The translations under genes were made by a program, and so were the position numbers. Of a stretch of DNA of 64,000 bases, positions 1,585-54,846 are shown piece after piece. The DNA comes from Candidatus Magasanikiibacteriota bacterium. GTDB lineage: Bacteria > Patescibacteriota > Patescibacteriia > Magasanikbacterales > UBA922. The stretch lies in the NCBI GenBank assembly GCA_041665025.1, contig JBAYJP010000006.1, positions 5,440-69,439 on the forward strand, written 5' to 3'. The notes under the pieces were generated by a model that was not told where the DNA came from, ran no database searches, and saw only the letters and a list, made by a program, of their open reading frames with translations. Position 1 is the first letter of the stretch. Each line of letters begins with the position of its first letter.

Positions 1585-2973
1585 TTGGTTCTCAGTTATA
1601 TGGTAAAAAATAATATTATATTCACCTGTTCCAACTGTGGCGCCCAATTTAGTAAATGGACGGGACGTTGTTTGGATTGCGGAAAATGGGGAACAATTGA
1701 GCAAGAAACAAAATACATAGACAAAAATACAAAAATAGTAGGAGAATATAAGCCAGTACAAACTAAAACACTTGATGAAATAAAAGGTAATAATACACAA
1801 CGAACTAAGACAAACATTTCTGAACTCGACCGTGTACTCGGTGGTGGAATTGTCCCTGGCAGTCTGACATTACTTGGTGGCGAACCTGGCATTGGCAAAT
1901 CAACTCTTGCACTCCAACTCGCGCTGTCCATCTCCCCTGCTCTATACATTTCAGGCGAAGAATCAGTTGAACAAATCAAACTTCGTGCAGATCGTCTCGA
2001 GGTAAAGACGCAAAATTTTGCGTCTCTTGAGCTGGCCAACGAAACCAATATCGACTCAATCTGCGCTACTATAAAAAATGTAAAAACCCAGCATGCTGCG
2101 TCTATGGACTACCATCTTGCTATCATCGATTCGATCCAAACTATCTACTCAGACGAAGTCGAGGGCGAACCGGGAAACGTAACGCAAATAAAAGCATGCA
2201 CCATAAAACTTCTCGAATGTGCGAAAAGCACCCGAACACCAATTGTACTCATAGGCCACGTAACCAAAGATGGCGAAGTTGCAGGTCCAAAAACACTGGA
2301 ACATTTGGTAGACACTGTCCTTTATCTCGAGGGCGACCGTTATCATAACTATAGAATTTTACGTACCGCAAAAAACAGATTTGGCGCAACTGATGAAGTG
2401 GGTATTTTTGAAATGACTGGGGCAGGTCTTAAGCCAGTTGAAAATCCATCTGCAAGTTTTTTGCAAGAACGCGGAGAAAATATGCCTGGCTCTGTCGTTA
2501 CGTGTTTGTTGGAAGGTACACGTCCCCTGTTGGTCGAAATACAGGCGCTTGTAAATAAGACATCGTTTGGTTATCCAGTACGCAAAGCAAGTGGATTCGA
2601 CTTGAATCGCTTACATGTACTAACTGCAATATTGCAAAAACGCGCAGGTCTTAATCTCGCGCAATACGATATTTATTTAAACGTGGTCGGAGGAATAAAA
2701 ACATCTGAACCTGCCGCAGACCTCGCTGTGTGTCTTGCAATAGCAAGCTCATACAAAGACAAAGCACTGGGTAAAGATTTAGTTGTGTTTGGCGAAGTTG
2801 GTCTTGGCGGAGAAGTGCGTACTGTAGGTCAGACTGAAAAAAGAATAAAAGAAAGTATGGGATTGGGAATGAAAAGAGTGATAAGCCATTTCAGCAAAAC
2901 AACAGAACAACACAAAAACACATTAACATTGATTGATGTGAAAAATATTGCAGAGTTGATAAAGCATACGTAA
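1585..2973 (+). CDS. radA: DNA repair protein RadA/Sms
   Basis: N-terminal C4 zinc finger (CSNCGAQFSKWTGRCLDCGKWGT), RecA-like Walker A (GGEPGIGKST) and a Lon-protease-like C-terminal domain. Confidence 0.9.
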   Translation: MVLSYMVKNNIIFTCSNCGAQFSKWTGRCLDCGKWGTIEQETKYIDKNTKIVGEYKPVQTKTLDEIKGNNTQRTKTNISELDRVLGGGIVPGSLTLLGGEPGIGKSTLALQLALSISPALYISGEESVEQIKLRADRLEVKTQNFASLELANETNIDSICATIKNVKTQHAASMDYHLAIIDSIQTIYSDEVEGEPGNVTQIKACTIKLLECAKSTRTPIVLIGHVTKDGEVAGPKTLEHLVDTVLYLEGDRYHNYRILRTAKNRFGATDEVGIFEMTGAGLKPVENPSASFLQERGENMPGSVVTCLLEGTRPLLVEIQALVNKTSFGYPVRKASGFDLNRLHVLTAILQKRAGLNLAQYDIYLNVVGGIKTSEPAADLAVCLAIASSYKDKALGKDLVVFGEVGLGGEVRTVGQTEKRIKESMGLGMKRVISHFSKTTEQHKNTLTLIDVKNIAELIKHT

Positions 2974-3002
2974 GTGGTGACGAATTACAACCCATCACCT
3001 GT

Positions 3003-3105
3003 CCTCTTCCCTTAAAAAAGGAAGAGTAACCATCAGCGAACACAAAACTTCTCTACAACGTTCTCCCTCCCTTTTTAAGGGAGGGAGCCAGAGGGTGGGT
3101 TGCTC
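3003..3105. repeat. GC-rich REP-like hairpin cluster (family A): CTCTTCCCTTAAAAAAGGAAGAG, then CTCCCTCCCTTTTTAAGGGAGGGAG followed by CCAGAGGGTGGGTTGC.
   Basis: Perfect inverted repeats read directly. The same hairpin-plus-tail architecture recurs at 5397-5437, 6291-6330, 13586-13660, 14707-14737 and 34641-34802. Confidence 0.7.
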
Positions 3106-3122
3106 AGTCACCTTCAAACAAA

Positions 3123-3150
3123 AAACACCCTTTACAGGTGTTTCTTTTTA
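3123..3150 (+). terminator. Rho-independent terminator downstream of radA
   Basis: AAACACC / GGTGTTT 7-bp stem with a 7-nt loop, followed by CTTTTTA. Confidence 0.6.
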
Positions 3151-3339
3151 TAAACAAAAAACCGCCCAAAAATCCTCCTCGCTCTATCTCCCATTTGGTC
3201 ATCCCGAGCGAACGTAGTGAGAGAGGGATCTTTCTTACTAATAACTTTATTTATTTCTAAAGTTATTATTTCAAAGACACATGTCTTAGGAAAGATTCCT
3301 CGTCACTTTGTTCCTCGGAATGTAATGAGGAATACAGCG

Positions 3340-3740
3340 AGTCGTGGGCGGTCTTCTGTGGAGAAGTACTGGTGTAAAGAACGAGACCACTCGCGACTTG
3401 CCCGGCTGTGGCGGTGGGAGCCGGAAGGGCAGAGAGTCCGGGCCTAGAGGCCCGGCGAGGTCAGGCGCGGTTTCGCGCCTGCATCAGAGCGCGATAGTCG
3501 TTCGAGCCGATCCCGGACTGAACGCCCGAGAACGCGACATCGTAGGTGTTCTCCGAGCCGACCGGCTTGAAGCGAACACGGATGTCCAGTTCCGTGTTCA
3601 CACCCACGATGTGCCCACGCACGCCACGATCGCCTCGAACTTCGATGTGCTCTTCCAGAATCTTCACGAGTAAACTCCCTCAGGGATTTGCGCAAGGCCG
3701 CCTGCCCGACCCAATCGGGTATGGCCTCGCACGAGATGAC
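3340..3740. other. High-GC island 1, about 400 bp of GC-rich DNA in an AT-rich intergenic region. It carries one small ORF with its own RBS and terminator.
   Basis: Abrupt composition shift visible by eye. Long ORFs appear in several frames, which is typical of high-GC sequence. Confidence 0.6.
3461..3667 (-). CDS. Small (68 aa) protein encoded on high-GC island 1. It uses a GTG start and its function is unknown.
   Basis: GGGAG RBS lies 9 nt upstream of the GTG. A CCGGGCCTAGAGGCCCGG hairpin sits immediately after the stop at 3437-3456. Third codon positions are GC-rich. Confidence 0.4.
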   Translation of the reverse strand: MKILEEHIEVRGDRGVRGHIVGVNTELDIRVRFKPVGSENTYDVAFSGVQSGIGSNDYRALMQARNRA

Positions 3741-3824
3741 AACATAATACATAAAAAAAGTGAAAAAGTCAATCAACACAAAAAAACTGGGCAAAACCCA
3801 GTCTTATTCTATGTATGTTCTATG

Positions 3825-4499
3825 TCAGTCCAATCGCTTGATAACCAATTTTCTCTTATCTTTAGGATCCCATATTCCCTGTTCTTTCATCATCTGTTTA
3901 ATTCGAGCATCTTTTAATTCGGTAAAATTGTTTCCGCCTTCCTCTTTCACAAAAAAATCAAATGATCCTTGAGAAAATGCCTCTGCCACAATATAATCAA
4001 ACCCGAGCATCTGTGCCAATGCAATAAGCCTTTCTTTACATTCTGACCCCAAACCTTTGCCGTGATAATCTGCATTGATGTCAATAGTCTCTAAGACCAG
4101 AGCCTTTTGGTCTTTATTCAGCTTGCCAAGTTGTACATACAATACCGGCATTTTTTGTTCTTCATCCAAAAATAAATCAGTAACATCTCTACTTTCTTCA
4201 AAATGCAATTTTGTCCGTGCTGAAGTTCTATCATAACGTACCCTCTTATCTACAACAGCAAAATGCAGTGAGCGTGATGTCTTATCCGGCCCTATCCTAA
4301 GTTCAAATTGTCCTGCTTTGACTGCATCGGGCACGAGCAATGATACAGCTTCTGGGGGTAAATCAAGAGTATGGGCATCTCTCAACTCAGGATGGTTGGA
4401 AAAATAATCTTCAATCTTTTTTTTATGCCCACCAACTCTATCTCCTAATTCAAAGTTTGCAATGCGTGCTCTGCTATGTTGAGAATATTCCAAAGTCAT
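3825..4499 (-). CDS. GNAT family N-acetyltransferase
   Basis: C-terminal GNAT acetyl-CoA motif A: INADYHGKGLGSECKERLIALAQMLGFDYIV. Confidence 0.6.
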   Translation of the reverse strand: MTLEYSQHSRARIANFELGDRVGGHKKKIEDYFSNHPELRDAHTLDLPPEAVSLLVPDAVKAGQFELRIGPDKTSRSLHFAVVDKRVRYDRTSARTKLHFEESRDVTDLFLDEEQKMPVLYVQLGKLNKDQKALVLETIDINADYHGKGLGSECKERLIALAQMLGFDYIVAEAFSQGSFDFFVKEEGGNNFTELKDARIKQMMKEQGIWDPKDKRKLVIKRLD

Positions 4500-4521
4500 A
4501 TATTCAATATATTATTATTTT

Positions 4522-6735
4522 TTATTCAAGATGAACACTCGTTTCCCACTCCTCCACTTTCTCTCTCAAACTTGGATACTCTCCAAAATCAATACCTCTT
4601 GCCATATCTCGCGCTAGTTTAATCAAGTCATGATCTTTGAGCGTGGCTAATTTGAAATTCATCATACCACTCTGTGCTGTGCCATACACTTCTCCAGGCC
4701 CACGTTGGTCTAGATCATACTCTGCCACTTTGAATCCATCAGTTGTTTTTTCAAAATACGATAATCGTTCTTTTACTTTGTCTGTGTCACTGTCAGTAAA
4801 CAAAAAACAATACGACTGGTGAAAACTTCTGCCGACTCGTCCTCTAAACTGATGTAACTGAGCCAAACCAAACCTCTCAGCACCTTCTATCATCATCACA
4901 CTTGCATTGGGAATATTTACGCCAACTTCCACAACTGACGTAGAAACTAAAATGTCTAACTCCCCTGCTGCAAATTTTTTCATGGTCTCATCTTTTTCTT
5001 GTGATTTCATTTTTCCATGTAAATACCCAATTCTTAGATCAGGAAAAACATTCTTAGATAATTTCTCATATTCTGCGAGTACACTCTTTTTTTCAAATGT
5101 AATTGGTAATTGGTAATTGGTAATTGGAATTTTATTTGTATCTTGTCTCTTGGAATTTATTTCTTCTATTAGTGGGCATACAACAAATACTTGCTTTCTA
5201 CGCTTCACTTGTTCGCGTATAAACGCATACGCCTTGTCTCGATTGTGTGGATCTACGAGCCGTGTCATCACTGGCTTTCTATCTTTTGGCATTTCACGGA
5301 TAATAGACAAATCCAAATCACCATACAAAGTCAGAGCAAACGAACGTGGGATAGGTGTCGCAGTCATTGAAAGGAAATGGGGTGAAAGTCTGTCGTCCTC
5401 CCCTCTCTTCGTAAGAGAGGGGCCGGGGGTGAGTTGCGCCGCCGAAGAAATACTTTTCTCTTTTAAAATCTTCCTCTGCTCTACCCCGAACCGGTGCTGT
5501 TCGTCCACAATCACCAAACCCAAATTCTTAAACTGCACATCTTCGGTAAGTAAGGCATGCGTCCCCACAATAACATCAACCTCTCCTTTTGCGATTTGGT
5601 CTATCATTTCTTTTTTTTGAGAAATTTTAGAATTGTTTCGAAATTCGAAATTCGAAATTCGAAATTCATTACGCGTTTGAATCCCCAACCTAACTTTATC
5701 TCCCAACAACTTCACAAGCGACTCATAATGTTGCACCGCCAAAATCTCTGTCGGCGCCATGATGACTCCCTGATATCCATTAAGTGCGGTATTATAGAGC
5801 GCCATTGCCGCCACAACTGTTTTACCAGACCCAACGTCCCCTTCTAGCAAACGATTCATCGGCTCTTTCTTTTCCAAATCTTGCAAAATTTCCCATGCTG
5901 AAACTTTTTGATCTTTCGTGAGTGCAAAAGGAAGCGAATGTACAAATTCTTTAATGGCGTCTTCTTGAAATGAAAGTTGAGGAGCAACAGATCTTTTTAT
6001 ACTTTGGCGTATCATTTCAGCACGAAGTTGCATGACAAATAGTTCATCAAACTTAAGCCGTCTTTGCGCGTATTTCAATTCATCTTGGCTTTCAGGAAAA
6101 TGTATTGCTTTCAAGGCCTCTTGCAACGGCATAATATCTGCCTGCTCCAATAAGTCATCGGGCAACCATTCCTTTATTTCATTTCTAACCTCAATAATCT
6201 GGCTCATCAAAAATCTAATCTGCTTGTGCGTTATACCGGTTGTCAATGAATACATCGGCACTATTCGAGCTGTGTGCGTACTCAAGAGCGTTCCCTCTCC
6301 TTGTAGGAGAGGGTCAGGGTAAGGTCTCTGCTTCACCTTTTCATATCCAGGAGAAACCATCTCTAACCCAAACATATCTGACTTTACTTTCCCAGATAAA
6401 TACACACTATCACCCACATGCAGGGCTTTCGCAATAAACGGCTGACCAAACCAAATAATTCGTAATTGCCCTGAATCATCGGCAACTAAAGCTTCAGTTA
6501 TCATTTTCCGTTTCCGCGGACTTCGTTTATTTGAGATAAGTTCAATTTTTCCTTGTATCGTAACATCCATCCCCTCTTGCAAATCTTTAATTGAAACAAC
6601 GGAACTGTAATCTTCATAGCGAAAAGGAAAATAAAACAAAAGATCCTCGACTGTTTCCACACCGAGATGTTTTAGCCGCGTTGCAAGGATTTTCCCCACG
6701 CGGTTTAATTGTGTAATAGGGGTAGTCAAATTCAT
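4522..6735 (-). CDS. recG: ATP-dependent DNA helicase RecG
   Basis: Wedge/OB N-terminus; helicase motifs GDVGSGKT, DEQHRFGV and MTATPIPRS. It contains four in-frame repeat insertions, described in the findings. Confidence 0.9.
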   Translation of the reverse strand: MNLTTPITQLNRVGKILATRLKHLGVETVEDLLFYFPFRYEDYSSVVSIKDLQEGMDVTIQGKIELISNKRSPRKRKMITEALVADDSGQLRIIWFGQPFIAKALHVGDSVYLSGKVKSDMFGLEMVSPGYEKVKQRPYPDPLLQGEGTLLSTHTARIVPMYSLTTGITHKQIRFLMSQIIEVRNEIKEWLPDDLLEQADIMPLQEALKAIHFPESQDELKYAQRRLKFDELFVMQLRAEMIRQSIKRSVAPQLSFQEDAIKEFVHSLPFALTKDQKVSAWEILQDLEKKEPMNRLLEGDVGSGKTVVAAMALYNTALNGYQGVIMAPTEILAVQHYESLVKLLGDKVRLGIQTRNEFRISNFEFRNNSKISQKKEMIDQIAKGEVDVIVGTHALLTEDVQFKNLGLVIVDEQHRFGVEQRKILKEKSISSAAQLTPGPSLTKRGEDDRLSPHFLSMTATPIPRSFALTLYGDLDLSIIREMPKDRKPVMTRLVDPHNRDKAYAFIREQVKRRKQVFVVCPLIEEINSKRQDTNKIPITNYQLPITFEKKSVLAEYEKLSKNVFPDLRIGYLHGKMKSQEKDETMKKFAAGELDILVSTSVVEVGVNIPNASVMMIEGAERFGLAQLHQFRGRVGRSFHQSYCFLFTDSDTDKVKERLSYFEKTTDGFKVAEYDLDQRGPGEVYGTAQSGMMNFKLATLKDHDLIKLARDMARGIDFGEYPSLREKVEEWETSVHLE
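5397..5437. repeat. Family A GC-rich hairpin, in-frame inside recG: CCTCCCCTCTCTT CGTA AGAGAGGGG then CCGGGGGTGAGTTGC.
   Basis: It translates through on the minus strand as ...AAQLTPGPSLTKRGEDDRLS... in the variable region before MTATPIPRS. Confidence 0.65.
6291..6330. repeat. Family A GC-rich hairpin, in-frame inside recG: CCCTCTCC TTGTA GGAGAGGG then TCAGGGTAAGGTCTC.
   Basis: Translated as ...KQRPYPDPLLQGEGTLL... It contains a GTAG tetranucleotide. Confidence 0.65.
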
Positions 6736-6787
6736 GGCTTTATTCTAACACAAAACCTCCTATGTGAGGAGGTTTAATATCAAAGAG

Positions 6788-6861
6788 TGGATGATACTGG
6801 TTTCGAACCAGTGACCTCTGCAATGTGAATGCAGCGCTCTAACCAACTGAGCTAATCATCC
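6788..6861 (-). tRNA. tRNA-Val (anticodon CAC)
   Basis: The reverse complement folds as a cloverleaf: acceptor GGATGAT/ATCATCC, D-arm GCTCAGTTGGTTAGAGC, anticodon stem CTGCA/TGCAG with loop TTCACAT, and T-loop TTCGAAA. Confidence 0.8.
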
Positions 6862-6958
6862 TTTGCCAGCAACACTATATCACGGAAAAAATTCAAAATC
6901 AAGGCCATATTATTGACTTTCTTTACTTTTTTGTATATACTTCTTACGTTTTCATCAA

Positions 6959-7030
6959 GCGCTCGTCGTTCAACGGATAGGACATTGGCCTGCGAAGCCG
7001 AAAATCCAGGTTCGATTCCTGGCGGGCGCA
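6959..7030 (+). tRNA. tRNA-Arg with a GCG anticodon (unusual for bacteria)
   Basis: Manual fold: acceptor GCGCTCG/CGGGCGC with one G-U pair; anticodon stem TTGGC/GCCGA; loop CTGCGAA with U33 and A37; T-arm CCAGG TTCGATT CCTGG; discriminator A. Confidence 0.65.
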
Positions 7031-7097
7031 CACCTTTGGGGACTAATGTATACATACACACAGACGCATAAATGGTACGTCCCCACAAAATAATACA

Positions 7098-7124
7098 TAA
7101 AAACCCGCCGCGACGGGTTTTTAT
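7098..7124 (+). terminator. Rho-independent terminator after tRNA-Arg
   Basis: AAACCCG CCGCGA CGGGTTTTT. Confidence 0.6.
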
Positions 7125-7221
7125 GTATTATTTTGAAAAATCCGAATAAAAAAATATTGCTTAAACAACAGACAAACTAGAGGATTTGCTAAACAAATTC
7201 CATAGATTCTATATATAAAAT

Positions 7222-7250
7222 TTGAACCCGTTTACCAAATGTGCTATACT
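7222..7250 (+). promoter_or_regulatory. Sigma70-like promoter: TTGAAC, 17-nt spacer, TATACT
   Basis: Near-consensus -35 and -10 hexamers with a 17-bp spacer, 9 bp upstream of the ATG at 7259. Confidence 0.6.
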
Positions 7251-7258
7251 AGCCGTAT

Positions 7259-7762
7259 ATGCCAAAACAAATCTCACCAGATATTATCATCGGCGAGGTA
7301 CTTCATGAATGGAGCATACCCGAATACGAGCAATACCAGAGAAACAAAGCATGGTATATTATTATGTTTGTCCTCGGAGGATCTATGGTATTGTATGCTA
7401 TTTTAAGCAACAACTTTTTGTTTGCCTTGATTATCATATTGTTTGCCATAATTCTCTTCCTACAATCACACCAACAACCCATTGTCATACCATTCAAAAT
7501 CACTGAGATGGGAGTCGTGGTAAATAACCGCTTTTACTCATATATAGAGCTTGATTCGTTTTATCTCTTCTACAATCCTCCAGATGTCAAAACATTGTTT
7601 ATCGAAACCCGAAACGTAAGCCGCCCCAAATTGCGCGTACCACTTATGGACATGGATCCAAATGAAATTCGCGCGACATTGAAAGAATTTCTCGAAGAAG
7701 ACCTGGAAAAAGAAGAAGAACCCATAAGTGATATGATCGGACGCAAATGGCAAATACATTAA
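7259..7762 (+). CDS. Hypothetical small membrane protein with two predicted TM helices
   Basis: ORF with hydrophobic segments, preceded by a promoter and followed by a terminator. Confidence 0.5.
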   Translation: MPKQISPDIIIGEVLHEWSIPEYEQYQRNKAWYIIMFVLGGSMVLYAILSNNFLFALIIILFAIILFLQSHQQPIVIPFKITEMGVVVNNRFYSYIELDSFYLFYNPPDVKTLFIETRNVSRPKLRVPLMDMDPNEIRATLKEFLEEDLEKEEEPISDMIGRKWQIH

Positions 7763-7775
7763 CACCTTCGCCTAT

Positions 7776-7800
7776 AACCCTCTAATATAGAGGGTTTTTA
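7776..7800 (+). terminator. Rho-independent terminator
   Basis: AACCCTCT AATAT AGAGGGTT followed by TTTA. Confidence 0.65.
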
Positions 7801-7826
7801 AATTGTCAGCTTGTCCTGATGTTTTG

Positions 7827-7937
7827 ATAATTATTCTAATTATACTAAATTATGCTGGACAAATTATAGTTTGTTTTATTTTAAAAATTAAAAATTTTTT
7901 AGAATAATTAGGTCAATCAGGATAATTAGAATAATTA
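7827..7937. mobile_element. MITE-like element of about 110 bp with terminal inverted repeats: ATAATTATTCTAATTATACTAA ... TTAGGTCAATCAGGATAATTAGAATAATT.
   Basis: AATTATTCTAATT and AATTAGAATAATT form an inverted pair. A near-identical second copy lies at 28609-28720. Both are bounded by AATTGTCAG. Confidence 0.5.
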
Positions 7938-7948
7938 CCGATGATTGG

Positions 7949-7977
7949 TTGCATTTTGCGTTTTTTTGCTGTATAAT
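7949..7977 (+). promoter_or_regulatory. Sigma70-like promoter: TTGCAT, 17-nt spacer, TATAAT
   Basis: Near-consensus hexamers about 20 bp upstream of the LCP gene start. Confidence 0.6.
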
Positions 7978-7997
7978 CAACAAGAAAATAAATACAT

Positions 7998-9443
7998 ATG
8001 GATCCAACAGAAATCCGTCATATTAATTTTCTTCATGAAAACCCAGAACCAGAACCTCCCAAACGGAGACGCTCCGGCCGGTGGATTTTTGTGTTGATGC
8101 TTATTGGGCTTATTATTGCCGGCGGTATTGGATATGCGGCAAATCAAAAACAACCAGATCTCGATCCTCTTGATTATGACCCGGTAACGCTTGAACCAAA
8201 ACAGCCCGAAGGATTTCTGAAAAAATTGTCCTATTTAGTCTTCAAAAAAGAAGTGAAACTTGAAGGCGCAAAAAATGATCGGATCAATATACTGCTACTT
8301 GGCATGGGTGGGCCAGGCCACGATGGGCCATACCTTACTGACACTATGATGATTGCAAGCATCAAGCCATCTACCAATGAAGTTGCCCTTATTTCAATAC
8401 CTCGAGATTTAGGTGTTGCCATCCCTGGATATGGAACACGAAAAATAAACCACGCCAACGCATTTGGAGAGATGGAAAAAGAAAATTGGGGTGGGGCATT
8501 TGCGACGCAAGTTGTAGCTGATGCATTTGACATGGATATCCCCTATTATATACGCATGGATTTTGCCGCTTTTGAAGAAATCATAAATGAAGTCGGCGGG
8601 ATTCGCGTAAACGTTGATAAAGCATTTACTGATTATATGTTCCCCGCACCACGCGATCAATACCAGACAATATCGTTCAAACAAGGACCGCAAACCATGG
8701 ACGGAAAGATAGCTTTAAATTTTGTACGTTCTCGGCATGGCAATAACGGCGAGGGGTCAGACTTCGCGCGCGCTAGACGTCAACAAAAAGTTATTCTCGC
8801 GCTTAAAGAAAAAGTTTTGTCATTTTCCACGCTTACCAACCCGGTCCGCATCAAAAAAATTATGGATTCGCTCGAACGGCATATGACGACAAATATGAAT
8901 TTTGATGCAATCGTCGGACTCGTGCGCATGGCTCGATCGATAAACACCGACAACGTAAAGACGCTCGTATTGGATAATGCAACAAATGGATTTCTCATAA
9001 GTAGCAACCATCCTACCGCAGGCTTTTTATTGACGCCAAAGACAGGAAATTTTAATGAAATACAACAAGCAATCAGTACTATTTTTGAAAATAATGAATT
9101 AACAAAAAAAGACACAACGCCTGAACAAGAAAAACCACGCTACGATACTGCAGTGGTCGAAGTTCAAAATGGTACATGGAGGGCAGGAACTGCGGCCCGG
9201 CTAAAACAGCAGCTTACTGAAGCAAACTTCTATGTTGACGCGGTTGGAAATACAGACCCAGCCTATAAACCGATTACTATAAGCGGTATTTATAAAATCT
9301 CAGACAATGAATCGCTTGAAGTAATGCAGGCTCTGCAAAATTCTCTGCACATACCTATAAAACAAACCCCTCCAGAAGGGATAATACCAACAGCCACCAG
9401 CACTGATATATTGGTAATTGTGGGGGATGATTTTGTCGAATGA
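7998..9443 (+). CDS. LytR-CpsA-Psr (LCP) family cell-wall glycopolymer phosphotransferase
   Basis: N-terminal TM helix; LCP core motifs LLLGMGGPG...LTDTMMIASI...ALISIPRDL...KINHANAFG; LytR_C-like C-terminus. Confidence 0.85.
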   Translation: MDPTEIRHINFLHENPEPEPPKRRRSGRWIFVLMLIGLIIAGGIGYAANQKQPDLDPLDYDPVTLEPKQPEGFLKKLSYLVFKKEVKLEGAKNDRINILLLGMGGPGHDGPYLTDTMMIASIKPSTNEVALISIPRDLGVAIPGYGTRKINHANAFGEMEKENWGGAFATQVVADAFDMDIPYYIRMDFAAFEEIINEVGGIRVNVDKAFTDYMFPAPRDQYQTISFKQGPQTMDGKIALNFVRSRHGNNGEGSDFARARRQQKVILALKEKVLSFSTLTNPVRIKKIMDSLERHMTTNMNFDAIVGLVRMARSINTDNVKTLVLDNATNGFLISSNHPTAGFLLTPKTGNFNEIQQAISTIFENNELTKKDTTPEQEKPRYDTAVVEVQNGTWRAGTAARLKQQLTEANFYVDAVGNTDPAYKPITISGIYKISDNESLEVMQALQNSLHIPIKQTPPEGIIPTATSTDILVIVGDDFVE

Positions 9444-9530
9444 TGAAATCCGTTCATACAAAAAATATTTTAAATAAAACAGTTAGCCGTGCTTTGGTGC
9501 TCAAGTGCTAAAGTGCTTAAGTGAATTATT

Positions 9531-10925
9531 ATGGATTCAGAAAACAGACAAGCCCAGGAAACAAACCTCCCCATTATTACTCTTGTTGGGCGTGCAAACG
9601 TAGGTAAATCAACACTCTTCAATAAACTAGTAGAAGAACACAAGGCGCTTGTATCGATAATACCCGGCACAACACGCACCGTAAATGAAGGCGATATATT
9701 ATGGAGAGGCGTGTATATCCATACGATAGACACGGGGGGGATAGATAATCTCGAAAATGAACGATTTTCCAAAGAAATTGTAGAACAGTCCGAAGGTGCT
9801 CTCAAACGCGCAGACATCATTCTTATGGTTTTCGACGCGCAAGTAGGCATTCTCCCCCAAGAAAAAGAACTTGCCCGAACATTATTAAAAAAATATCGAG
9901 CAACAAAAAAAATTATACCCGTAGCAAACAAAATAGACAGCAAACGAATTGAAAATAAGCTTCATGCAGAAGAATTTTTGTCTCTGGGGTTGGGCCAGCC
10001 ATTATATATCTCAGCGACAAACGGAAGTGGTGTGGGTGACCTGCTTGATTATGTGTACAAAGAACTACGGAAGCTCGGCAAACGGCCTAAGCAAACTAAC
10101 AAAGCATTGACAACCGATGTGCGCGTGTCTATGTTTGGCAAACCAAATGTAGGAAAATCATCGCTCTTCAACAAAATTGTTGGTCTCGAGAAAGTTATTG
10201 TAAGTGATATTGCACACACAACCCGTGAACCATTTGATACGCAAGTGGAATATACCGAAGGCAAGAAAAAATATACTATTACATTTGTCGACACGGCAGG
10301 CATTCGTAGAAAAGCACATGTGAGCGGTATGCTTGAAGAACAGGGAATTAAAAAAAGTATCCAAAATATTGAAAAATCAGATATTATTTTACTTGTGCTT
10401 GATGGGAGCCAACCATTCTCTTCCCAAGATATGCAGCTTGGCGGACTTATTGAACGCAGAAGCAAAAGTGTTATAATTCTTATCAACAAATGGGATCTGA
10501 CCGAAGATAATAGCGACGCGTACCGCAACCAAGTAAAGGCAATGACGTATGCCCATTTCCCCCATCTCGATTTTGCACCTATTTTATTTGTAAGTGGCAA
10601 GACGGCATATCGTGTTCAACAGATATTTCCATTGATCGTCCAAATTGCGCAGGCCCGTACAACTGAAATTCCCACAGACAAATTGGATGACTTCCTAAAA
10701 CGCGCCATGAAAACACATAGGCCTACCAAGGGAAAAGGCAAAAGTATCCCCGTCATTTGGGGAATAAAACAAATCAATTCAAATCCTCCTGTGTTCGAGT
10801 TATTTTTAAAACCACGAACTTCAGTACATGGATCATACTTCAAATATTTGGAGCACAAACTTCGAGAAGAATTCAACTTTTTGGCAACTCCAATTGTCAT
10901 CAAAGTGACTAAGATGAAAAAATAA
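9531..10925 (+). CDS. der: Ribosome-biogenesis GTPase Der/EngA
   Basis: Two tandem GTPase domains (GRANVGKSTLFN, GKPNVGKSSLFN; DTGG/DTAG; NKxD) and a KH-like C-terminus. Confidence 0.9.
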   Translation: MDSENRQAQETNLPIITLVGRANVGKSTLFNKLVEEHKALVSIIPGTTRTVNEGDILWRGVYIHTIDTGGIDNLENERFSKEIVEQSEGALKRADIILMVFDAQVGILPQEKELARTLLKKYRATKKIIPVANKIDSKRIENKLHAEEFLSLGLGQPLYISATNGSGVGDLLDYVYKELRKLGKRPKQTNKALTTDVRVSMFGKPNVGKSSLFNKIVGLEKVIVSDIAHTTREPFDTQVEYTEGKKKYTITFVDTAGIRRKAHVSGMLEEQGIKKSIQNIEKSDIILLVLDGSQPFSSQDMQLGGLIERRSKSVIILINKWDLTEDNSDAYRNQVKAMTYAHFPHLDFAPILFVSGKTAYRVQQIFPLIVQIAQARTTEIPTDKLDDFLKRAMKTHRPTKGKGKSIPVIWGIKQINSNPPVFELFLKPRTSVHGSYFKYLEHKLREEFNFLATPIVIKVTKMKK

Positions 10926-10930
10926 TTACA

Positions 10931-10994
10931 AGTTCATAGCCAATAGCCAGTAGCTCATAGTATTGAACATTGTCCATTCTATTGGCTATGAACT
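10931..10994. repeat. Palindromic repeat, family E: AGTTCATAGCCAATAG ... CTATTGGCTATGAACT
   Basis: Perfect 16-bp inverted arms between der and pth. A related copy lies at 54321-54390. Confidence 0.6.
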
Positions 10995-11014
10995 ATTGGC
11001 TATCAACTAATTAT

Positions 11015-11560
11015 ATGAAACTCATCGTCGGTCTCGGAAACCCAGGCAAGCAATATGAAAAGACGCGCCACAACGTCGGTTTTATGATACTTGACGCCTT
11101 ACATGATGCACTTTCAGAATATAGTATAAACACATGGGAATTAAGCAAAAAATTTAATGCGTACGTTGCGGGATGCACTATGCATGGCGAAAAAATAATT
11201 TTAGCAAAGCCATTGACATTCATGAATGCATCAGGAGAAACAATCCAGCTCATTGCGCATTTTTATCAGCTTTCTCATGATGATCTTGTCATTGTACATG
11301 ATGATAAAGACATTAAACTGGGCGAAATAAAAATTCAAAAAGACCGCGGAGACGCAGGGCATAATGGCATAAAATCAGTTATCGAACACATTGGCAGTAA
11401 AAATTTTATGCGCGTACGTGTTGGCATTGCACCAGAAGATGAAAAAAGAATGAGAAAAGACGTACCAAAATTTGTATTGGGAAAATTTAGCATGTTTGAA
11501 AAGAAAAAAGTAGAGCAAACAATAGACAATGCGATCCAAAATATTATGAGTCTCCTATAG
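11015..11560 (+). CDS. pth: Peptidyl-tRNA hydrolase
   Basis: MKLIVGLGNPG...RHNVGF N-terminal signature. The start is placed at the ATG at 11015, because the longer ORF from 10970 merely translates the palindrome. Confidence 0.9.
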   Translation: MKLIVGLGNPGKQYEKTRHNVGFMILDALHDALSEYSINTWELSKKFNAYVAGCTMHGEKIILAKPLTFMNASGETIQLIAHFYQLSHDDLVIVHDDKDIKLGEIKIQKDRGDAGHNGIKSVIEHIGSKNFMRVRVGIAPEDEKRMRKDVPKFVLGKFSMFEKKKVEQTIDNAIQNIMSLL

Positions 11561-11565
11561 TTTAA

Positions 11566-11682
11566 CCTATCACATAACACATATCACGTATCACATTGAC
11601 GAAATCACAGAGAACGTCGAATCTGATGTTATGTGTTATGTGTTATGTGTTATATGTTATGTGTTACGTGCTACGTAATATC
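11566..11682. repeat. Imperfect inverted arrays of CACATAA/GTGTTAT heptamers flanking the dprA start
   Basis: TATCACATAACACATATCACGTATCAC ... GTTATGTGTTATGTGTTATATGTTATGTGTTACGTG. Confidence 0.5.
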
Positions 11683-12762: not shown

Positions 12763-12900
12763 ATCTCAATTTACAAATTTTCAATTTTCAAATATGTTAT
12801 AAAGTCAAAATTAATCTTTATCGTAAATTTATCCGGCGTAGTCCCGCCTTGGTCGGGACGAAGACGGAATCTTGATTCTTCAATTTTATATTTTATTCCT

Positions 12901-13581: not shown

Positions 13582-13585
13582 TTTT

Positions 13586-13660
13586 CCCTCCCCCTACAAG
13601 GGGGAGCCAGAGGGGGTCTTCTAAAATTAAGACCCCACCTCGCCTCCCCTTCTAGGGGAG
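13586..13660. repeat. Family A REP-like cluster of three hairpins (CTCCCCCTACAAGGGGGAG, GGGGTCTT..AAGACCCC, CTCCCCTTCTAGGGGAG)
   Basis: Intergenic, between the membrane protein and the folC-like gene; shares the CCAGAGGGGGTC tail. Confidence 0.65.
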
Positions 13661-13673
13661 TTTTCCTGTTACT

Positions 13674-15050
13674 ATGACATTTGACCAAGCATACAATTAC
13701 ATCCTCTCTCTCAACAATCTTCCGCGCAAAGAATACATGGCCGACCCTCGCCACTGCGGATGGTATCTTAAGCGCCTCCAGTTTTTCTTGGATATTTTAG
13801 GGAACCCCGAACGCAAAATTCCACACTATATTCACGTAACCGGCACAAGCGGCAAAGGATCGGTGACTGCCTATATGCATTCTATACTTCATGCAAGCGG
13901 GAAAAAGGTAGGCTCGACCTACTCCCCTCATCCTACTATTATCACTGAGCGATGGAAAATTGGGAACAAATTTATGACAAAAAAAGAGTTTGTCCAATTA
14001 GTGGAATATATCAAGCCAAAACTTGATGAATACACGGCAACTACTCCCTATGATGCGCTGTCCTTCTTTGAAATCACTGAAGCAATCGGTTTTTTGTATT
14101 TTGCAAAACATAATGTCAAATGGGCAGTTTTAGAAGTTGCCTGCGGAGGACGTTATGATGCAAGTAATATTATTCCGTGGAAAGATATCGCTGTTATTAC
14201 AAATATAGGGTTAGACCATGTCGGGCTTATTGGTAATAATAAATCAGAAATTGCATACGAAAAAGCTGGCATCATAAAACGTGGGTGTACATTTTTTTCT
14301 ACTGAAAAAGATAAGAGGATTATCAATGTATTAACTCGGGAAGCAAAAAAAATATTAAATATTAAAGATATTAGGATATTAAATGATATTAAATATCCCA
14401 ATATCACAATATCAAAATATCATAATATCCCAATATCTGGAACCAACTTTACATACAAAGATGCCATATATCACCTGCCCACAATAGGTACGCATCAAAT
14501 ACAAAATTCAATATTATGTATCGAAATTGCCAAACATCTTCATATTCCGCAACATGCTATCAAGCGCGGACTCTCACAAGTCAAACAGCCTCTTCGTATG
14601 GAAATCGTTTCTCACAATCCTCTCGTCATCCTTGACGGCGCACACAATCCAGACAAGATGAGGACGACTGTTGAGACTACAAAAACATTGCAAAAACAAA
14701 AAAATATCCTCCCCCTAGGGGGAGGCGAGAGGGGGTCAAAAAATATCCATCTGGTCGTCGGCTTCTCTGGTGACAAAAACATTCCCAACATGGTTAAACA
14801 ACTTGCCACTGTCAAACCAAAATCAATTGCGGTGACACGCAACACAACAAATCCATTTCGTAAAGTCGCAGACCTACAACTTGTTGCTAGGCAATTTAAA
14901 AAATTACTTCCAAAATCAAAAATTAAACTCTTCCTCGAACCATCTAAAGCATTATTGTGGACAAAAAAAATAGCCAAGACACATGATATCATCTTGGCTA
15001 CTGGATCAATATTTGTAAGTGGAGAACTACGAGGTCAAACAAATGGATAG
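13674..15050 (+). CDS. folC: Folylpolyglutamate synthase / dihydrofolate synthase (Mur ligase family)
   Basis: Mur-ligase P-loop HVTGTSGKGS and overall FolC-like layout. It carries an in-frame AT-rich low-complexity insert (14349-14438) and an in-frame family-A hairpin (14707-14737, PLGGGERGS). Confidence 0.7.
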   Translation: MTFDQAYNYILSLNNLPRKEYMADPRHCGWYLKRLQFFLDILGNPERKIPHYIHVTGTSGKGSVTAYMHSILHASGKKVGSTYSPHPTIITERWKIGNKFMTKKEFVQLVEYIKPKLDEYTATTPYDALSFFEITEAIGFLYFAKHNVKWAVLEVACGGRYDASNIIPWKDIAVITNIGLDHVGLIGNNKSEIAYEKAGIIKRGCTFFSTEKDKRIINVLTREAKKILNIKDIRILNDIKYPNITISKYHNIPISGTNFTYKDAIYHLPTIGTHQIQNSILCIEIAKHLHIPQHAIKRGLSQVKQPLRMEIVSHNPLVILDGAHNPDKMRTTVETTKTLQKQKNILPLGGGERGSKNIHLVVGFSGDKNIPNMVKQLATVKPKSIAVTRNTTNPFRKVADLQLVARQFKKLLPKSKIKLFLEPSKALLWTKKIAKTHDIILATGSIFVSGELRGQTNG

Positions 15051-34640: not shown

Positions 34641-34802
34641 GCCCCTCTGAGTTTGTTCGAGCAACCCACCCTTAATCCCTCCTTTAAAAAGGGAGGGAAA
34701 GACGATTTAACAAACTCCTCCTCCCTTTTTAAGGGAGGAGGTTGGGAGGTGGGTTGCACGGACAATGCAAGGGAAAATAAAAAGAAGATAGGTTGCTCGA
34801 AC
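34641..34802. repeat. Family A REP-like cluster: two oppositely oriented CTCC(T)CCCTTTTTAAGGGAGG hairpins nested inside a GTTCGAGCAACCCACCC ... GGGTGGGTTGC ... GGTTGCTCGAAC outer inverted repeat
   Basis: Intergenic, between aspS and the M23/LTD gene; read directly from sequence. Confidence 0.65.
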
Positions 34803-34816
34803 TGTTAACCCAAGAC

Positions 34817-39427: not shown

Positions 39428-40144
39428 TTATAAACGTGGACGATTGTTCCGATCACGATTCCACATGGGTGGATTATATATAATATAACGTTGTATATTA
39501 TGAAACGCCGTTTCATTTCGGATAATATTATCATAAAACGACCGTTGCCATTTGAATTGTGGAAAACCAATTTCGTGGATACGTTTCGACGTGGTCGTTT
39601 TCAATGCGCCGATAATATTTGATAATGATAATATGTTGTATGAACCCGGTGCATGTAGGGACAGGTCTAGACCTGTCCCTACACCACGTTCCATGTCAAT
39701 CATCATATTGAGGTCATTGCCGCGACCTGCCCCTACGGACCCCGCATTATCCAAATCCATTGCAATACCACCGGCATGACCCACCCCTACACCATCGGCA
39801 CAATCCATATCAATATCATTATTCAAATCCATTGTAATATTATTTCCATTGACGACCGTATCGTCACATATTTCCAATATCCCATGCACATGGTTCGGCA
39901 TAACCACAAACCCGTGTGATCGTATATACGAATATTGGTGCGACAACCATTCCCATTGGCGATATAGGACCGTGCCCACACGATTCACGCACATTACACC
40001 ATTATATACACCACCAAAAAATGAAATCCTACCCTCTACACAGATCGTAATAAAATAACACCTATTATTTTTATAATCAAAACCCCGTAAACGATTATTT
40101 TTTCTATTATTCCTCCTATACATATACGCATAGTATACATGCAA
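39428..40144 (-). mobile_element. REP-associated tyrosine transposase (RAYT, IS200/IS605-like Y1/HuH family) carrying an in-frame insertion of about 85 aa
   Basis: YFITICVEGR...VVMPNHVHGIL (HuH) ... FKWQRSFYDNIIRNE (catalytic Tyr helix) ... YIIYNPPMW. The order and spacing match E. coli YafM-type RAYTs, apart from the insert between the HuH motif and the Tyr helix. Confidence 0.75.
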
Positions 40145-54830: not shown

Positions 54831-54846
54831 TTTCGTACATAAAAAT

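What the first reader, a model, noticed from the sequence alone, without database searches (positions are those of the whole stretch)
3003..3105. Genome-wide family of GC-rich REP-like hairpins (family A) with a shared GGGTGGGTTGC-type tail
Copies lie at 3003-3105, 5397-5437, 6291-6330, 13586-13660, 14707-14737 and 34641-34802. Each has a 9-11 bp G/C-rich perfect stem with a 4-7 nt AT-rich loop, for example CTCCCTCCC-TTTTTAA-GGGAGGGAG. Most are followed by a CCAGAGGGTGGGTTGC, CCGGGGGTGAGTTGC or CCAGAGGGGGTC tail. Several contain GTAG or CTAC. The 34641-34802 cluster has two oppositely oriented copies nested in a longer inverted repeat, arranged like a BIME. Together with the RAYT at 39428-40144, this looks like an active REP/RAYT system in an AT-rich small genome.
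Basis: partly seen in the sequence, partly recalled or inferred. Interest (0 to 1): 0.7.

Follow-up and report, generated by a model that had tools for sequence, protein, structure and literature searches.

The report
Mobile mini-hairpins, some inside genes
A candidate-phyla-radiation bacterium carries nine copies of a ~40-base C-rich/G-rich hairpin repeat that occurs across many bacterial phyla, sits just after genes or in-frame inside housekeeping genes (recG, folC), and is not the partner of the transposase next door.

Summary
The hairpins are real and non-random. There are nine copies on a 78.5-kb Candidatus Magasanikbacteria contig, against none in 20 simulated sequences. All 63 stem pairs have the pyrimidine on the 5' arm, and each copy has a G-rich tail on one side.

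Six copies form three inverted doublets that begin 4-15 nt after stop codons. Three single copies lie in-frame inside recG (two) and a folC-like gene (one). These sites are empty in close orthologues. Elsewhere they are filled in other reading frames or with other hairpin variants.

The family is not genome-specific. One variant has exact matches in at least ten phyla and in viral contigs, at 23-71% GC.

The neighbouring ORF is a RAYT-like transposase, but its cognate repeat is a different palindrome, GTAGGGACAGGTC..GACCTGTCCCTAC, which lies inside the RAYT gene itself. RAYT genes occur in 19 of 126 loci holding that palindrome and in 0 of 157 family-A loci.

The only gene that recurs beside family-A hairpins is a DUF559 (Vsr-like nuclease) cassette. 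It is bracketed in the same two arrangements as the window's doublets, but no DUF559 gene is on this contig.

Verdict: an untagged repeat that behaves like REPs and Rickettsia palindromic elements, probably mobile, and a new variant of a known kind. The DUF559 link is a lead, not proof.

The parts
2977..3113 (.). Head-to-head inverted doublet. It starts 4 nt after the radA stop codon (2973). Unit 2988-3026 (-) has a CTCTTCC/GGAAGAG stem and the tail CAACCCATCACC read on the + strand. Unit 3063-3103 (+) is CTCCCTCCC-TTTTTAA-GGGAGGGAG plus CCAGAGGGTGGGTTGC. The outer stem is GGTGAC...GTCACC.
   Evidence: Fold -26.1 kcal/mol, z = -4.4.
5400..5437 (+). Single unit inside recG (4522-6735, - strand), antisense to the gene and in-frame. 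It encodes ...AQLTPGPSLTKRGED... between helicase motifs II and III.
   Evidence: The site is a gap in the alignment to T. maritima RecG 1GM5 and is empty in orthologues P0007 and P0017.
6293..6326 (+). Single unit inside recG, in a loop of the wedge domain, antisense and in-frame. It encodes RPYPDPLLQGEG. This copy is an exact match to the cross-phylum pattern AGGAGAGGG-N3-GGGTAAGGTC.
   Evidence: The site is empty in P0007 and P0009. It is filled in another reading frame in P0002 and P0017.
13586..13660 (.). Tail-to-tail inverted doublet. It starts 5 nt after the stop of ORF 12901-13581. Units are 13588-13618 (+) and 13631-13660 (-). The two tails pair with each other (GGGGTCTT/AAGACCCC), giving three consecutive hairpins.
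   Evidence: I9. Fold -22.8 kcal/mol, z = -4.2.
14708..14737 (+). Single unit inside the folC-like Mur-ligase gene (13737-15050, + strand), sense and in-frame. It encodes ILPLGGGERGS in a variable loop of the C-terminal domain.
   Evidence: Orthologues P0132, P0134, P0141 and P0148 have no insertion here. P0170 and P0229 carry the canonical SPLLVGEGSGVRS.
34655..34760 (.). Head-to-head inverted doublet, 15-60 nt after the stop (34817) of the 1315-aa gene on the - strand and upstream of aspS. Units are 34661-34698 (-) and 34717-34757 (+). The tails form the outer stem (GCAACCCACC/GGTGGGTTGC). An extra partial tail copy lies at 34793-34804.
   Evidence: I20. Fold -31.6 kcal/mol, z = -4.8.
39428..40123 (-). 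RAYT-like Y1/HUH transposase gene. It is NOT the partner of family A. An in-frame insertion of about 75 aa between the HUH and Tyr motifs carries the clade's own GTAG palindrome at 39654-39683 and half copies at 39724-39736 and 39778-39790.

Best explanation
Family A is the local population of a very widespread class of miniature hairpin repeats, about 37-46 nt long. Each unit is a pyrimidine/C-rich 5' arm, a short loop, a purine/G-rich 3' arm, and on one side a G-rich half-stem (the 'tail'). The canonical form is CCCCTCTCCT-nnn-AGGAGAGGGG-yy-GGGGGTGAGGTC.

The units behave as tiny non-autonomous insertional elements. They are gained and lost at orthologous sites. Most accumulate just downstream of genes, often as inverted doublets that fold into larger structures. 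A minority survive inside genes when the insert is a multiple of 3 and stop-free.

The Py and Pu arms encode only Pro/Leu/Ser/Phe and Gly/Glu/Arg/Lys, so the added 12-17 residues make a flexible surface loop. This is the Rickettsia-palindromic-element mode of existence.

What is shown: the anatomy, the non-randomness, the in-frame position in recG and folC, presence/absence and frame or variant differences among orthologues, the breadth across phyla, and the lack of a link to the RAYT.

What is inferred: actual transposition, and the agent. My best guess for the agent (about 0.3) is a DUF559/Vsr-like nuclease. Its small gene is bracketed elsewhere by these hairpins in the same two arrangements as the gene-less doublets here. 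On that reading the doublets would be MITE-like derivatives of a DUF559 cassette.
For: 1. Non-random family: 7 strict elements against 0 in 20 simulations. 63 of 63 stem pairs have the pyrimidine on the 5' arm, with C-G/T-A covariation at every position.

2. In-frame and intragenic: recG twice and folC once, with the ORFs intact and the Pfam domains interrupted by extra residues.

3. Insertion polymorphism. RecG P0002 is filled at both sites, while P0007 (85% identical) is empty at both. The difference at site 1 is exactly the 39-nt element. Site 1 is filled in two different reading frames in different lineages. Site 2 carries three different hairpin variants. The folC site is likewise variable.

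4. The element is conserved far above its host gene: 92-93% nucleotide identity (third codon positions 31 of 34) against 66-78% (third positions 45-58%) for the rest of recG.

5. Breadth. There were also 37 viral contigs. About 9 of 10 hits have the complementary arm even though the search pattern did not require it.

6. Elsewhere 17 of 105 copies lie in long open frames. These include two UvrD-type helicases, an amino-acid kinase, a radical-SAM protein and an M16 peptidase.

7. DUF559. It forms the largest gene cluster near the elements, in 7 of 120 genome loci against 0 of 126 control loci (p = 0.006). The gene is bracketed as [hairpin-tail]gene[tail-hairpin] or as [tail-hairpin]gene[hairpin-tail]. 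In viral contigs, 28 of 80 DUF559 loci (mostly among the best-scoring loci) have such hairpins just before and after the gene.
Against: - No transposition event was observed. The closest filled/empty pair is only 85% identical, so no target-site duplication or exact excision scar can be read.
- High element identity between orthologues could reflect DNA- or RNA-level selection or gene conversion rather than recent insertion.
- No DUF559 gene lies on the 78.5-kb contig or in about 120 kb of related Magasanikbacteria loci. The rest of the genome was not available.
- The DUF559 association was found post hoc from one clustering run. Bracket orientation is not uniform. Hairpins next to DUF559 could instead be its expression signals or its cleavage targets.
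- The window's copies are sequence variants of the canonical element. Only 6293 matches the scanned pattern, so homology of every copy with the cross-phylum family rests on shared architecture.
- Copies occur only in the first 35 kb of the window.
Confidence: 0.6

Rival explanations
1. Family A hairpins are the REPs of the RAYT at 39428-40144, which binds the hairpin as ssDNA and cuts and rejoins it to spread copies.
For: - The ORF is RAYT-like.
- The intergenic behaviour of family A (inverted doublets, within 20 nt of stop codons) matches REPs.
- The tail (TTAGGGTGAGGTC, GGGTGGGTTGC) resembles the left arm of the RAYT's own palindrome (GTAGGGACAGGTC, GTAGGGGTGGGTC) at about 10 of 13 positions. 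I noticed this post hoc.
Against: - There is no conserved GTAG tag.
- The RAYT clade carries a different palindrome in or at its own gene in five genomes.
- RAYT genes occur in 19 of 126 loci of that palindrome and in 0 of 157 family-A loci.
- No family-A copy flanks the RAYT here or in L166 and L167.
- L166, which has the RAYT, has no family-A hairpin in 20 kb.
Confidence: 0.1
2. The hairpins are primarily functional cis elements, such as 3'-end mRNA stabilisers, attenuators, terminator-like structures or ribosome-binding modules. On this view they are kept by selection, and mobility is incidental or absent.
For: - All three intergenic doublets start 4-15 nt after a stop codon.
- Element sequence is conserved above synonymous sites.
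- In phage-like contig L040 seven copies lie on one strand, with the tail GGGTGAGGTC 2-8 nt before ATG codons.
- The purine arm and the tail are Shine-Dalgarno-like.
Against: - No U-tract follows the hairpins. A separate terminator-like hairpin plus T-run follows at 3124-3150.
- A 3'-UTR function does not explain copies inside recG and folC in either orientation (9 sense, 8 antisense elsewhere).
- It also does not explain presence/absence at the same codon positions in different frames.
- Near-identical 40-mers in genomes of 23-71% GC across phyla argue for spread rather than independent invention.
- This explanation is compatible with the best explanation if the function is secondary (exaptation).
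Confidence: 0.17
3. The hairpins are not mobile. They arise de novo at permissive places by template switching or slippage on G-rich or C-rich tracts, and look alike through convergence (stop-free, loop-friendly codons).
For: - The tail is a degenerate direct repeat of the 3' arm, as template switching could produce.
- Arms vary among copies.
- GC-rich Py/Pu arms are automatically stop-free.
Against: - Exact 19-26-nt matches, including spacer and tail, recur across phyla and in multi-copy contigs.
- At recG site 1 the whole 39-nt unit is present or absent.
- Association with one particular gene family, DUF559.
Confidence: 0.05
4. The intragenic copies are not translated. They are skipped by the ribosome (as with the mitochondrial 'byp' elements or T4 gene 60) or removed from the mRNA.
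For: GC-rich hairpins inserted in genes of AT-rich genomes are bypassed in Magnusiomyces mitochondria (own knowledge, not checked here).
Against: All intragenic copies examined here and in orthologues are multiples of 3 and stop-free in the host frame. A bypassed or spliced element would not need that.
Confidence: 0.03

Closest known systems
REP / REPIN elements with RAYT transposases (GTAG-tagged REP superfamily)
   Same: - A palindrome of 20-40 nt.
- Many units occur in inverted pairs (HH or TT) that fold into larger hairpins.
- They sit within 20 nt of the 3' end of ORFs.
- A minority lie inside genes, notably replication and repair genes (PMC3733652). Here the hosts are recG, and UvrD-type helicases in other loci.
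   Different: - No GTAG (or CGTC) tag.
- No RAYT linkage (0 of 157 loci).
- Strict pyrimidine-5'/purine-3' arm asymmetry.
- Near-identical sequence across many phyla, whereas REP families are usually lineage-specific.
- The RAYT in this window has its own, different REP.
[quoted passage not shown]
   Same: - Palindromic repeats inserted in-frame in conserved genes of a small AT-rich genome.
- They add a peptide segment at permissive surface sites.
- They also occur in intergenic DNA.
   Different: - RPEs are 105-146 bp and confined to Rickettsia. Family A is about 40 nt and cross-phylum.
- There is no sequence similarity.
- The short RPE-4 and RPE-6 are CGTC-tagged REPs (PMC3733652), which family A is not.
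CGTC-tagged REPs (no known transposase)
   Same: - Short hairpin with an unpaired tail.
- Mostly HH dimers.
- Intragenic copies exist.
- No dedicated transposase is known.
   Different: CGTC REPs have a CGTC/TGTC/CCTC end tag, stems of 8-9 bp that start with A-T pairs, loops of 4-5 nt and a CCA tail. Family A has C-rich stems, no such tag, and a 10-16-nt G-rich tail.
MITEs (non-autonomous derivatives of a gene-bearing element)
   Same: The window's HH and TT doublets have the same end arrangement as the hairpin units bracketing DUF559 genes elsewhere. This is the relation a MITE has to its parent element.
   Different: - No target-site duplication is visible.
- The putative parent encodes a PD-(D/E)XK Vsr-like nuclease, not a known transposase.
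- Single units also occur alone.
DUF559 / Vsr / I-Bth0305I clade of PD-(D/E)XK nucleases
   Same: The bracketed genes match PF04480 at E about 1e-35. The clade includes a very-short-patch repair nickase and a group-I-intron homing endonuclease (PMC3424549; PMC3239194).
   Different: - None of the 25 held papers that mention DUF559 appears, from its title and abstract, to describe flanking hairpin repeats.
- No DUF559 gene is present in this window.
Yeast mitochondrial GC clusters / 'byp' elements (own knowledge, not checked here)
   Same: Short GC-rich mobile hairpins in an AT-rich genome, sometimes inside coding sequence.
   Different: Byps break the frame and are bypassed in translation. Family A copies keep the frame.

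Membership tests
REP (GTAG superfamily) / REPIN-RAYT system | Short (20-40 nt) imperfect palindrome repeated in the genome | tested here: met
   Nine units with 7-11 bp stems on 78.5 kb, against 0 in 20 simulations.
REP (GTAG superfamily) / REPIN-RAYT system | Unpaired GTAG tetranucleotide at a fixed end of the palindrome | tested here: not met
   GTAG/CTAC appears only in loops (6293, 13588) or 8 nt upstream (3063) and is absent from the other copies. The canonical cross-phylum copies have variable bases there.
REP (GTAG superfamily) / REPIN-RAYT system | Cognate RAYT gene flanked by, or linked to, the repeats | tested here: not met
   0 of 157 family-A loci hold a RAYT-clade gene, against 19 of 126 loci of the GTAG palindrome. 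No family-A copy lies within 4.6 kb of the RAYT here, and none in L166 or L167.
REP (GTAG superfamily) / REPIN-RAYT system | Inverted doublets that form a longer hairpin (REPIN-like), located after genes | tested here: met
   Three doublets, z = -4.2 to -4.8, starting 4-15 nt after stop codons.
CGTC-tagged REPs | CGTC-type end tag, 8-9 bp stem starting with A-T pairs, 4-5 nt loop, CCA tail | tested here: not met
   At the foot of the stem 8 of 9 copies have C-G. There is no CGTC tag. Tails are 10-16 nt and G-rich.
Rickettsia palindromic elements | In-frame insertion in conserved protein genes, absent from orthologues | tested here: met
   recG twice and folC once. The sites are empty in orthologues.
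Rickettsia palindromic elements | Sequence family of 105-146 bp restricted to Rickettsia | tested here: not met
   Units are about 40 nt, in Patescibacteria and at least 9 other phyla. RPE sizes are from PMC3184786.
MITE | Terminal inverted repeats shared with an autonomous, gene-bearing parent element | tested here: inconclusive
   DUF559 genes are bracketed by the same units in the two arrangements seen in the doublets. However, there is no parent copy in this genome fragment and mobility of the cassette has not been shown.
MITE | Target-site duplication at insertion sites | tested here: inconclusive
   The closest filled/empty pair is 85% identical at the protein level. No duplication is visible at recG site 1, but divergence is too high to exclude a short one.
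Known RNA families (Rfam 15) | Match to a curated covariance model | tested here: not met
   Only six tRNAs reach the gathering score in the window. In 2950-3850, at E up to 10, the hits are chance-level miRNA-precursor and sRNA matches.
RAYT (for ORF 39428-40123) | HUH motif, catalytic Tyr motif, match to the REP_Tyr_transpos / Y1_Tnp models | tested here: inconclusive
   The motifs are present (NHVHGIL, WQRSFYDNIIR). NCBIfam gives E = 1e-14 at 54.7 bits, below the cut-off of 80. Pfam Y1_Tnp gives 18.9 bits, below 23. The gene is split by a 75-aa insert. Homologues are named RayT and many carry PF01797. I treat it as a RAYT-clade gene whose activity is unknown.

The most novel reading that the evidence does not exclude
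The pyrimidine-arm/purine-arm mini-hairpins are the ends, and the gene-less derivatives, of a previously unrecognised mobile element that is spread across bacterial phyla. Its only gene would be a DUF559 (Vsr-like, PD-(D/E)XK) nuclease that nicks the hairpin or cruciform and spreads by repair-templated copying. Its 40-nt derivatives would colonise 3' UTRs, phage genomes and even housekeeping ORFs such as recG, uvrD and folC in ultra-small CPR genomes. A second, separate novelty is that this RAYT clade keeps its cognate GTAG REP inside its own coding sequence. The REP is conserved as DNA across phyla but read in different frames and at different positions.
Probability: 0.3. Interest if true: 0.8.

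Novelty: new variant of a known kind. Interest (0 to 1): 0.6.

Why it matters
- It would extend 'selfish DNA inside protein-coding genes', best known from Rickettsia RPEs and a few REP families, to the candidate phyla radiation. Every gene counts in these roughly 1-Mb genomes, and lineage-specific protein insertions there are common but unexplained.
- It points to a 40-nt sequence shared almost unchanged by genomes from 23 to 71% GC in at least ten phyla and by phages. That calls for a common agent.
- It offers a testable candidate agent, DUF559, for a class of hairpin repeats that lacks one. REP literature notes the same gap for CGTC REPs.
- Practically, these inserts create spurious 'hypothetical' ORFs and odd peptide motifs (PSPxxGEG, PLLxGEGxGVRS). 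They confuse domain boundaries and can break metagenome assemblies.
- The double dissociation (RAYT with the GTAG palindrome, DUF559 with the Py/Pu hairpin) is a clean way to assign repeats to their enzymes from metagenomes.

Tried and rejected
1. Two MAFFT alignments (A2, A3) put the loops out of register because of low-complexity arms and variable loops and spacers. I did not build a model on them. I used an explicit hairpin-plus-tail descriptor with simulations instead.

2. Rfam. Nothing beyond tRNAs.

3. Fixed 16-nt tail as a family marker. It is unique in the window even with 3 mismatches allowed.

4. Literature by sequence strings and by concept. I found no description of this element or of hairpins flanking DUF559. 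The Elhai 2008 paper on small dispersed repeats is not held, so overlap with cyanobacterial SDRs could not be checked.

5. RAYT as partner. Rejected.

6. G-quadruplex, H-DNA or alternative pairing of the tail with the 5' arm. I considered these by eye. Only some copies have four G-runs and the pairing is poor, so I did not pursue them.

7. Resemblance of the tails to 16S rRNA helix-44 strands (GGGAGTGGGTTGC, GGGGTGAAGTCG, recalled from memory). Judged post hoc and probably chance.

8. 'Stop-free in six frames' as a selected feature. GC-rich 13-codon stretches are mostly open anyway (my estimate is about 70%), so I treat it as a by-product.

9. Target-site duplication. Not readable at 85% identity.
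Full report
ORGANISM AND SETTING

The window is about 40% GC. RecG encoded at 4522-6735(-) is 100% identical to a protein annotated from a Candidatus Magasanikbacteria MAG, on a 78.5-kb contig. I rebuilt the whole contig; the window is contig positions 5458-69457. Rfam finds only six tRNAs.

Every reported place contains the hairpins. A systematic scan gives nine units:
- 2988-3026(-)
- 3063-3103(+)
- 5400-5437(+)
- 6293-6326(+)
- 13588-13618(+)
- 13631-13660(-)
- 14708-14737(+)
- 34661-34698(-)
- 34717-34757(+)

Each unit has a perfect 7-11 bp stem and a 2-9 nt loop. On one side it has a G-rich tail: GGGTGGGTTGC, GGGTGAGTTGC, GGGTAAGGTC or GGGGGTC.

A descriptor for this anatomy finds 7 units in the window and none in 20 Markov-simulated windows. 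All 63 stem pairs have the pyrimidine on the 5' arm. C-G and T-A alternate at every position, so pairing is kept through double changes. Hairpins with the pyrimidine arm first number 8; those with the purine arm first number 0.

The full 16-mer tail is not shared, since it has one match even at up to 3 mismatches. GTAG/CTAC is not a positional tag.

2. WHERE THE COPIES LIE

Six units form three inverted doublets:
- 2977-3113, head-to-head
- 13586-13660, tail-to-tail
- 34655-34760, head-to-head

They begin 4, 5 and 15 nt after the stop codons of radA, ORF 12901-13581 and the 1315-aa gene. They fold much better than shuffles, at -26.1, -22.8 and -31.6 kcal/mol with z = -4.2 to -4.8. The tails form the outer or middle stem.

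The other three units are inside genes, which changes the picture. Units 5400 and 6293 lie in recG, and 14708 lies in a folC-like Mur ligase. The reading frames stay open. The units encode AAQLTPGPSLTKRGED, RPYPDPLLQGEG and ILPLGGGERGS.

3. THE INTRAGENIC COPIES ARE INSERTIONS THAT COME AND GO

In an alignment of 26 orthologous RecG proteins, the two peptides sit in two loops of variable length. Many orthologues have the minimal loop of 5-7 and 6 residues. Site 2 is a gap against the solved T. maritima RecG structure.

I fetched DNA for five orthologues and made a codon alignment. It shows the following:
- P0002 is filled at both sites, while P0007 (85% identical) is empty at both. At site 1 the difference is exactly the 39-nt unit GACCTCACCCCCAACCCCTCTCCTTATAAAGGAGAGGGG.
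- Site 1 is read in two different frames in different lineages: RPYPDPLLQGEG here and in P0008, DLTPNPSPYKGEG in P0002 and P0017.
- Site 2 holds three different hairpin variants: CCCCTCTCTT, CCCCCC and CCCTCCCCTT.

These points argue for repeated, independent insertion into the same permissive loops, not one ancestral event.

Where two orthologues share a filled site, the unit is 92-93% identical (third codon positions 31 of 34). The rest of recG is 66-78% identical (third positions 45-58%). So the unit is either younger than the gene divergence, homogenised, or constrained as DNA or RNA.

The folC site behaves the same way. Several orthologues have no insert, and two have the canonical SPLLVGEGSGVRS.

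4. THE FAMILY REACHES FAR BEYOND THIS GENOME

The copy at 6293 and copies in related Magasanikbacteria fit CCCCTCTCCT-loop-AGGAGAGGGG-yy-GGGGGTGAGGTC. I scanned only for the 3' arm plus tail (AGGAGAGGGN{2,6}GGGTRAGGTC).

Results:
- 37 viral-contig stretches.

The genome hits come from Bacteroidota, Ignavibacteriota, Chloroflexota, Cyanobacteria, at least eight Patescibacteria lineages, Verrucomicrobiota, Armatimonadota, Acidobacteriota, Gammaproteobacteria and Cloacimonadota. Locus GC ranges from 23 to 71%.

About nine hits in ten are preceded by the complementary arm and a 2-6 nt loop, although the pattern did not ask for it. By my arithmetic, chance matches would number in the tens at most and would lack the arm. 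Some contigs carry 3-7 copies.

A fully palindromic form exists, GACCTCACCCC-CCCTCTCC-nn-GGAGAGGG-GGGGTGAGGTC (L131, L138). The 'tail' is therefore the outer half-stem of a longer hairpin.

In loci below 50% GC, 88 of 105 copies are intergenic and 17 lie in long open frames, 9 sense and 8 antisense. Hosts confirmed by Pfam include two UvrD-type helicases, an amino-acid kinase, a radical-SAM protein and an M16 peptidase.

5. THE RAYT IS REAL BUT BELONGS TO ANOTHER REPEAT

ORF 39428-40144(-), with a probable start at 40123, shows NHVHGIL and WQRSFYDNIIR. It matches NCBIfam REP_Tyr_transpos at E = 1e-14 and 54.7 bits, under the cut-off of 80. It matches Pfam Y1_Tnp weakly. It has 112 homologues, many named RayT.

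It is split by an in-frame insert of about 75 aa. The insert holds the perfect palindrome GTAGGGACAGGTC-TA-GACCTGTCCCTAC (39654-39683) and two half copies.

The same DNA palindrome lies inside four other RAYT genes:
- The syntenic orthologue L166.
- L167, where it is read in another frame.
- A Pontibacter RAYT, which has a second copy 70 nt upstream.
- A Flavobacterium RAYT, where it sits at a different position in the gene.

Of 126 loci, 19 contain a RAYT-clade gene, and 31 of 149 palindromes lie in it or within 300 nt of it. None of 157 family-A loci (1.13 Mb) contains one (Fisher 9e-8). No family-A unit flanks the RAYT here or in L166 and L167.

The 'REP/RAYT system' therefore exists in this lineage, but its REP is the GTAG palindrome, not family A.

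6. A CANDIDATE PARTNER FOR FAMILY A

I clustered all ORFs within 2.5 kb of family-A copies. The largest cluster shared between loci is a 120-140-aa DUF559 protein (PF04480, E about 1e-35), present in 7 of 120 genome loci and in 0 of 126 control loci (p = 0.006).

In each of the seven loci there is a family-A hairpin close to the gene, on both sides in L089, L118, L125, L135 and L148. Two arrangements occur:
- [hairpin-tail]gene[tail-hairpin] in L135 and L118.
- [tail-hairpin]gene[hairpin-tail] in L089 and L125.

 These are the arrangements of the window's tail-to-tail and head-to-head doublets, minus the gene.

I then started from DUF559 instead. In viral contigs, 28 of 80 DUF559 loci, mostly among the best-scoring loci, have Py/Pu GC-rich hairpins about 80-100 nt before and 40-110 nt after the domain. 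The arm sequences differ between lineages.

DUF559 belongs to the Vsr / I-Bth0305I clade of PD-(D/E)XK nucleases (PMC3424549). None of the 25 held papers that mention DUF559 appears, from its title and abstract, to describe flanking repeats.

No DUF559 gene is on this contig or in the related Magasanikbacteria loci. For this genome the link is an inference.

7. HOW IT MOST LIKELY WORKS

Shown: a structured, non-random repeat family; insertion polymorphism at codon resolution; tolerance in-frame; cross-phylum spread; dissociation from the RAYT.

Inferred: the units are non-autonomous insertional elements. Insertions anywhere in a gene are lost unless they are multiples of three, stop-free and in a surface loop. 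The Py and Pu arms encode only P/L/S/F and G/E/R/K, which suits such loops. Intergenic copies persist just past stop codons, where they may secondarily affect mRNA 3' ends.

More speculative (about 0.3): a DUF559 nuclease nicks the hairpin and the unit spreads by repair or replication. The doublets would then be the gene-less counterparts of the cassette.

8. COMPARISON WITH WHAT IS KNOWN

The behaviour matches what Di Nocera et al. [quoted passage not shown] It also matches the RPE mode of in-frame insertion (PMC3184786).

Membership fails on defining features. There is no GTAG or CGTC tag and no RAYT linkage. The stem, loop and tail rules differ from CGTC REPs. The size and host range differ from RPEs.

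I therefore file it as a new variant of a known kind: an untagged, Py/Pu-asymmetric, cross-phylum REP-like element. I could not check the cyanobacterial 'small dispersed repeats' paper, so prior description under another name is possible.

9. VERDICT

Observation confirmed. Interpretation partly supported: REP-like yes, RAYT-driven no. Interest 0.6. Intragenic REP-like repeats are known. The points worth follow-up are the cross-phylum identity, the recurrent colonisation of recG, uvrD and folC in CPR genomes, the DUF559 lead, and the REP inside the RAYT gene.

Noticed in passing
window 39654-39683 (plus 39724-39736, 39778-39790); L166 10325-10358; L167 10284-10311; L168 9915-9934 and 10272-10291; L169 10110-10129: The RAYT-clade genes carry their own GTAG-tagged palindrome (GTAGGGACAGGTC-nn-GACCTGTCCCTAC) inside the coding sequence. 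It is conserved as DNA across Patescibacteria and Bacteroidota, but is read in different frames and sits at different positions in the protein.
   Followed up: yes
L089, L118, L125, L135, L138, L148, L154; L296-L330: Small DUF559 (Vsr-like nuclease) genes are bracketed by Py/Pu GC-rich hairpins at nearly fixed distances in many lineages. Arm sequences differ between lineages (CCCTCTCCCGC, TCCGCCCCC, CCTCCCCC). This looks like a conserved gene-plus-hairpin cassette.
   Followed up: partly
window 3330-3740 and 40600-41300; L166 8886-9536: Islands of about 60-65% GC in a 40% GC genome. One lies in an 850-nt stretch with no called gene (2974-3824). The other is a 185-aa lipoprotein-like ORF next to the RAYT and is also present beside the orthologous RAYT in L166. 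Neither has a Pfam match. Their origin is unexplained.
   Followed up: no
window recG 4522-6735 (peptides FRISNFEFRN and NKIPITNYQLPITF); intergenic 52397-52494, 54763-54840, 56242-56311, 50598-50697: A second, AT-rich repeat type. Long AT-rich inverted repeats fill intergenic regions. Related AT-rich motifs seem to encode variable peptides (xSIFNFQFx, IGNWKLEI) at two further indel-variable sites of RecG in many orthologues.
   Followed up: no
RecG homologues P0024, P0046, P0074, P0076, P0082, P0086: Some Magasanikbacteria RecG proteins are 877-903 aa long and contain a PF13366 (GxxExxY / PDDEXK_3) domain, as if a whole nuclease-like domain were inserted in recG. L090's UvrD-type helicase also seems to contain an intein-like insert, besides the hairpin peptide.
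   Followed up: no
L040 (IMGVR_UViG_3300007351_000082), 2761-14335: A phage-like contig with seven family-A copies, all on one strand, about 1.5-2.5 kb apart. The tail GGGTGAGGTC often lies 2-8 nt before an ATG, as if the unit served as an intergenic module supplying a ribosome-binding site.
   Followed up: no
window tails (3093-3103, 34747-34757, 6317-6326) versus 39655-39667 and 39778-39790: The family-A tail (TTAGGGTGAGGTC, GGGTGGGTTGC) resembles the left arm of the RAYT's GTAG palindrome (GTAGGGACAGGTC, GTAGGGGTGGGTC) at about 10 of 13 positions. I noticed this post hoc, so it could be chance, or it could hint at cross-recognition.
   Followed up: no
contig genes L005 19742-20086, L376 7417-7785, and L004 5777-6148 in a relative: Several PF05635 (23S rRNA intervening-sequence protein) genes are scattered on the contig. 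A 3073-aa ORF (41378-50599, -) has no Pfam hit on record for its 3091-aa orthologue in L166; I did not scan the window ORF itself, and the gene is syntenic in L166.
   Followed up: no
P0254: The NCBI annotation of this contig calls only a 157-aa fragment of the RAYT gene (44% of the core query), probably because of the repeat-rich in-frame insert.
   Followed up: no
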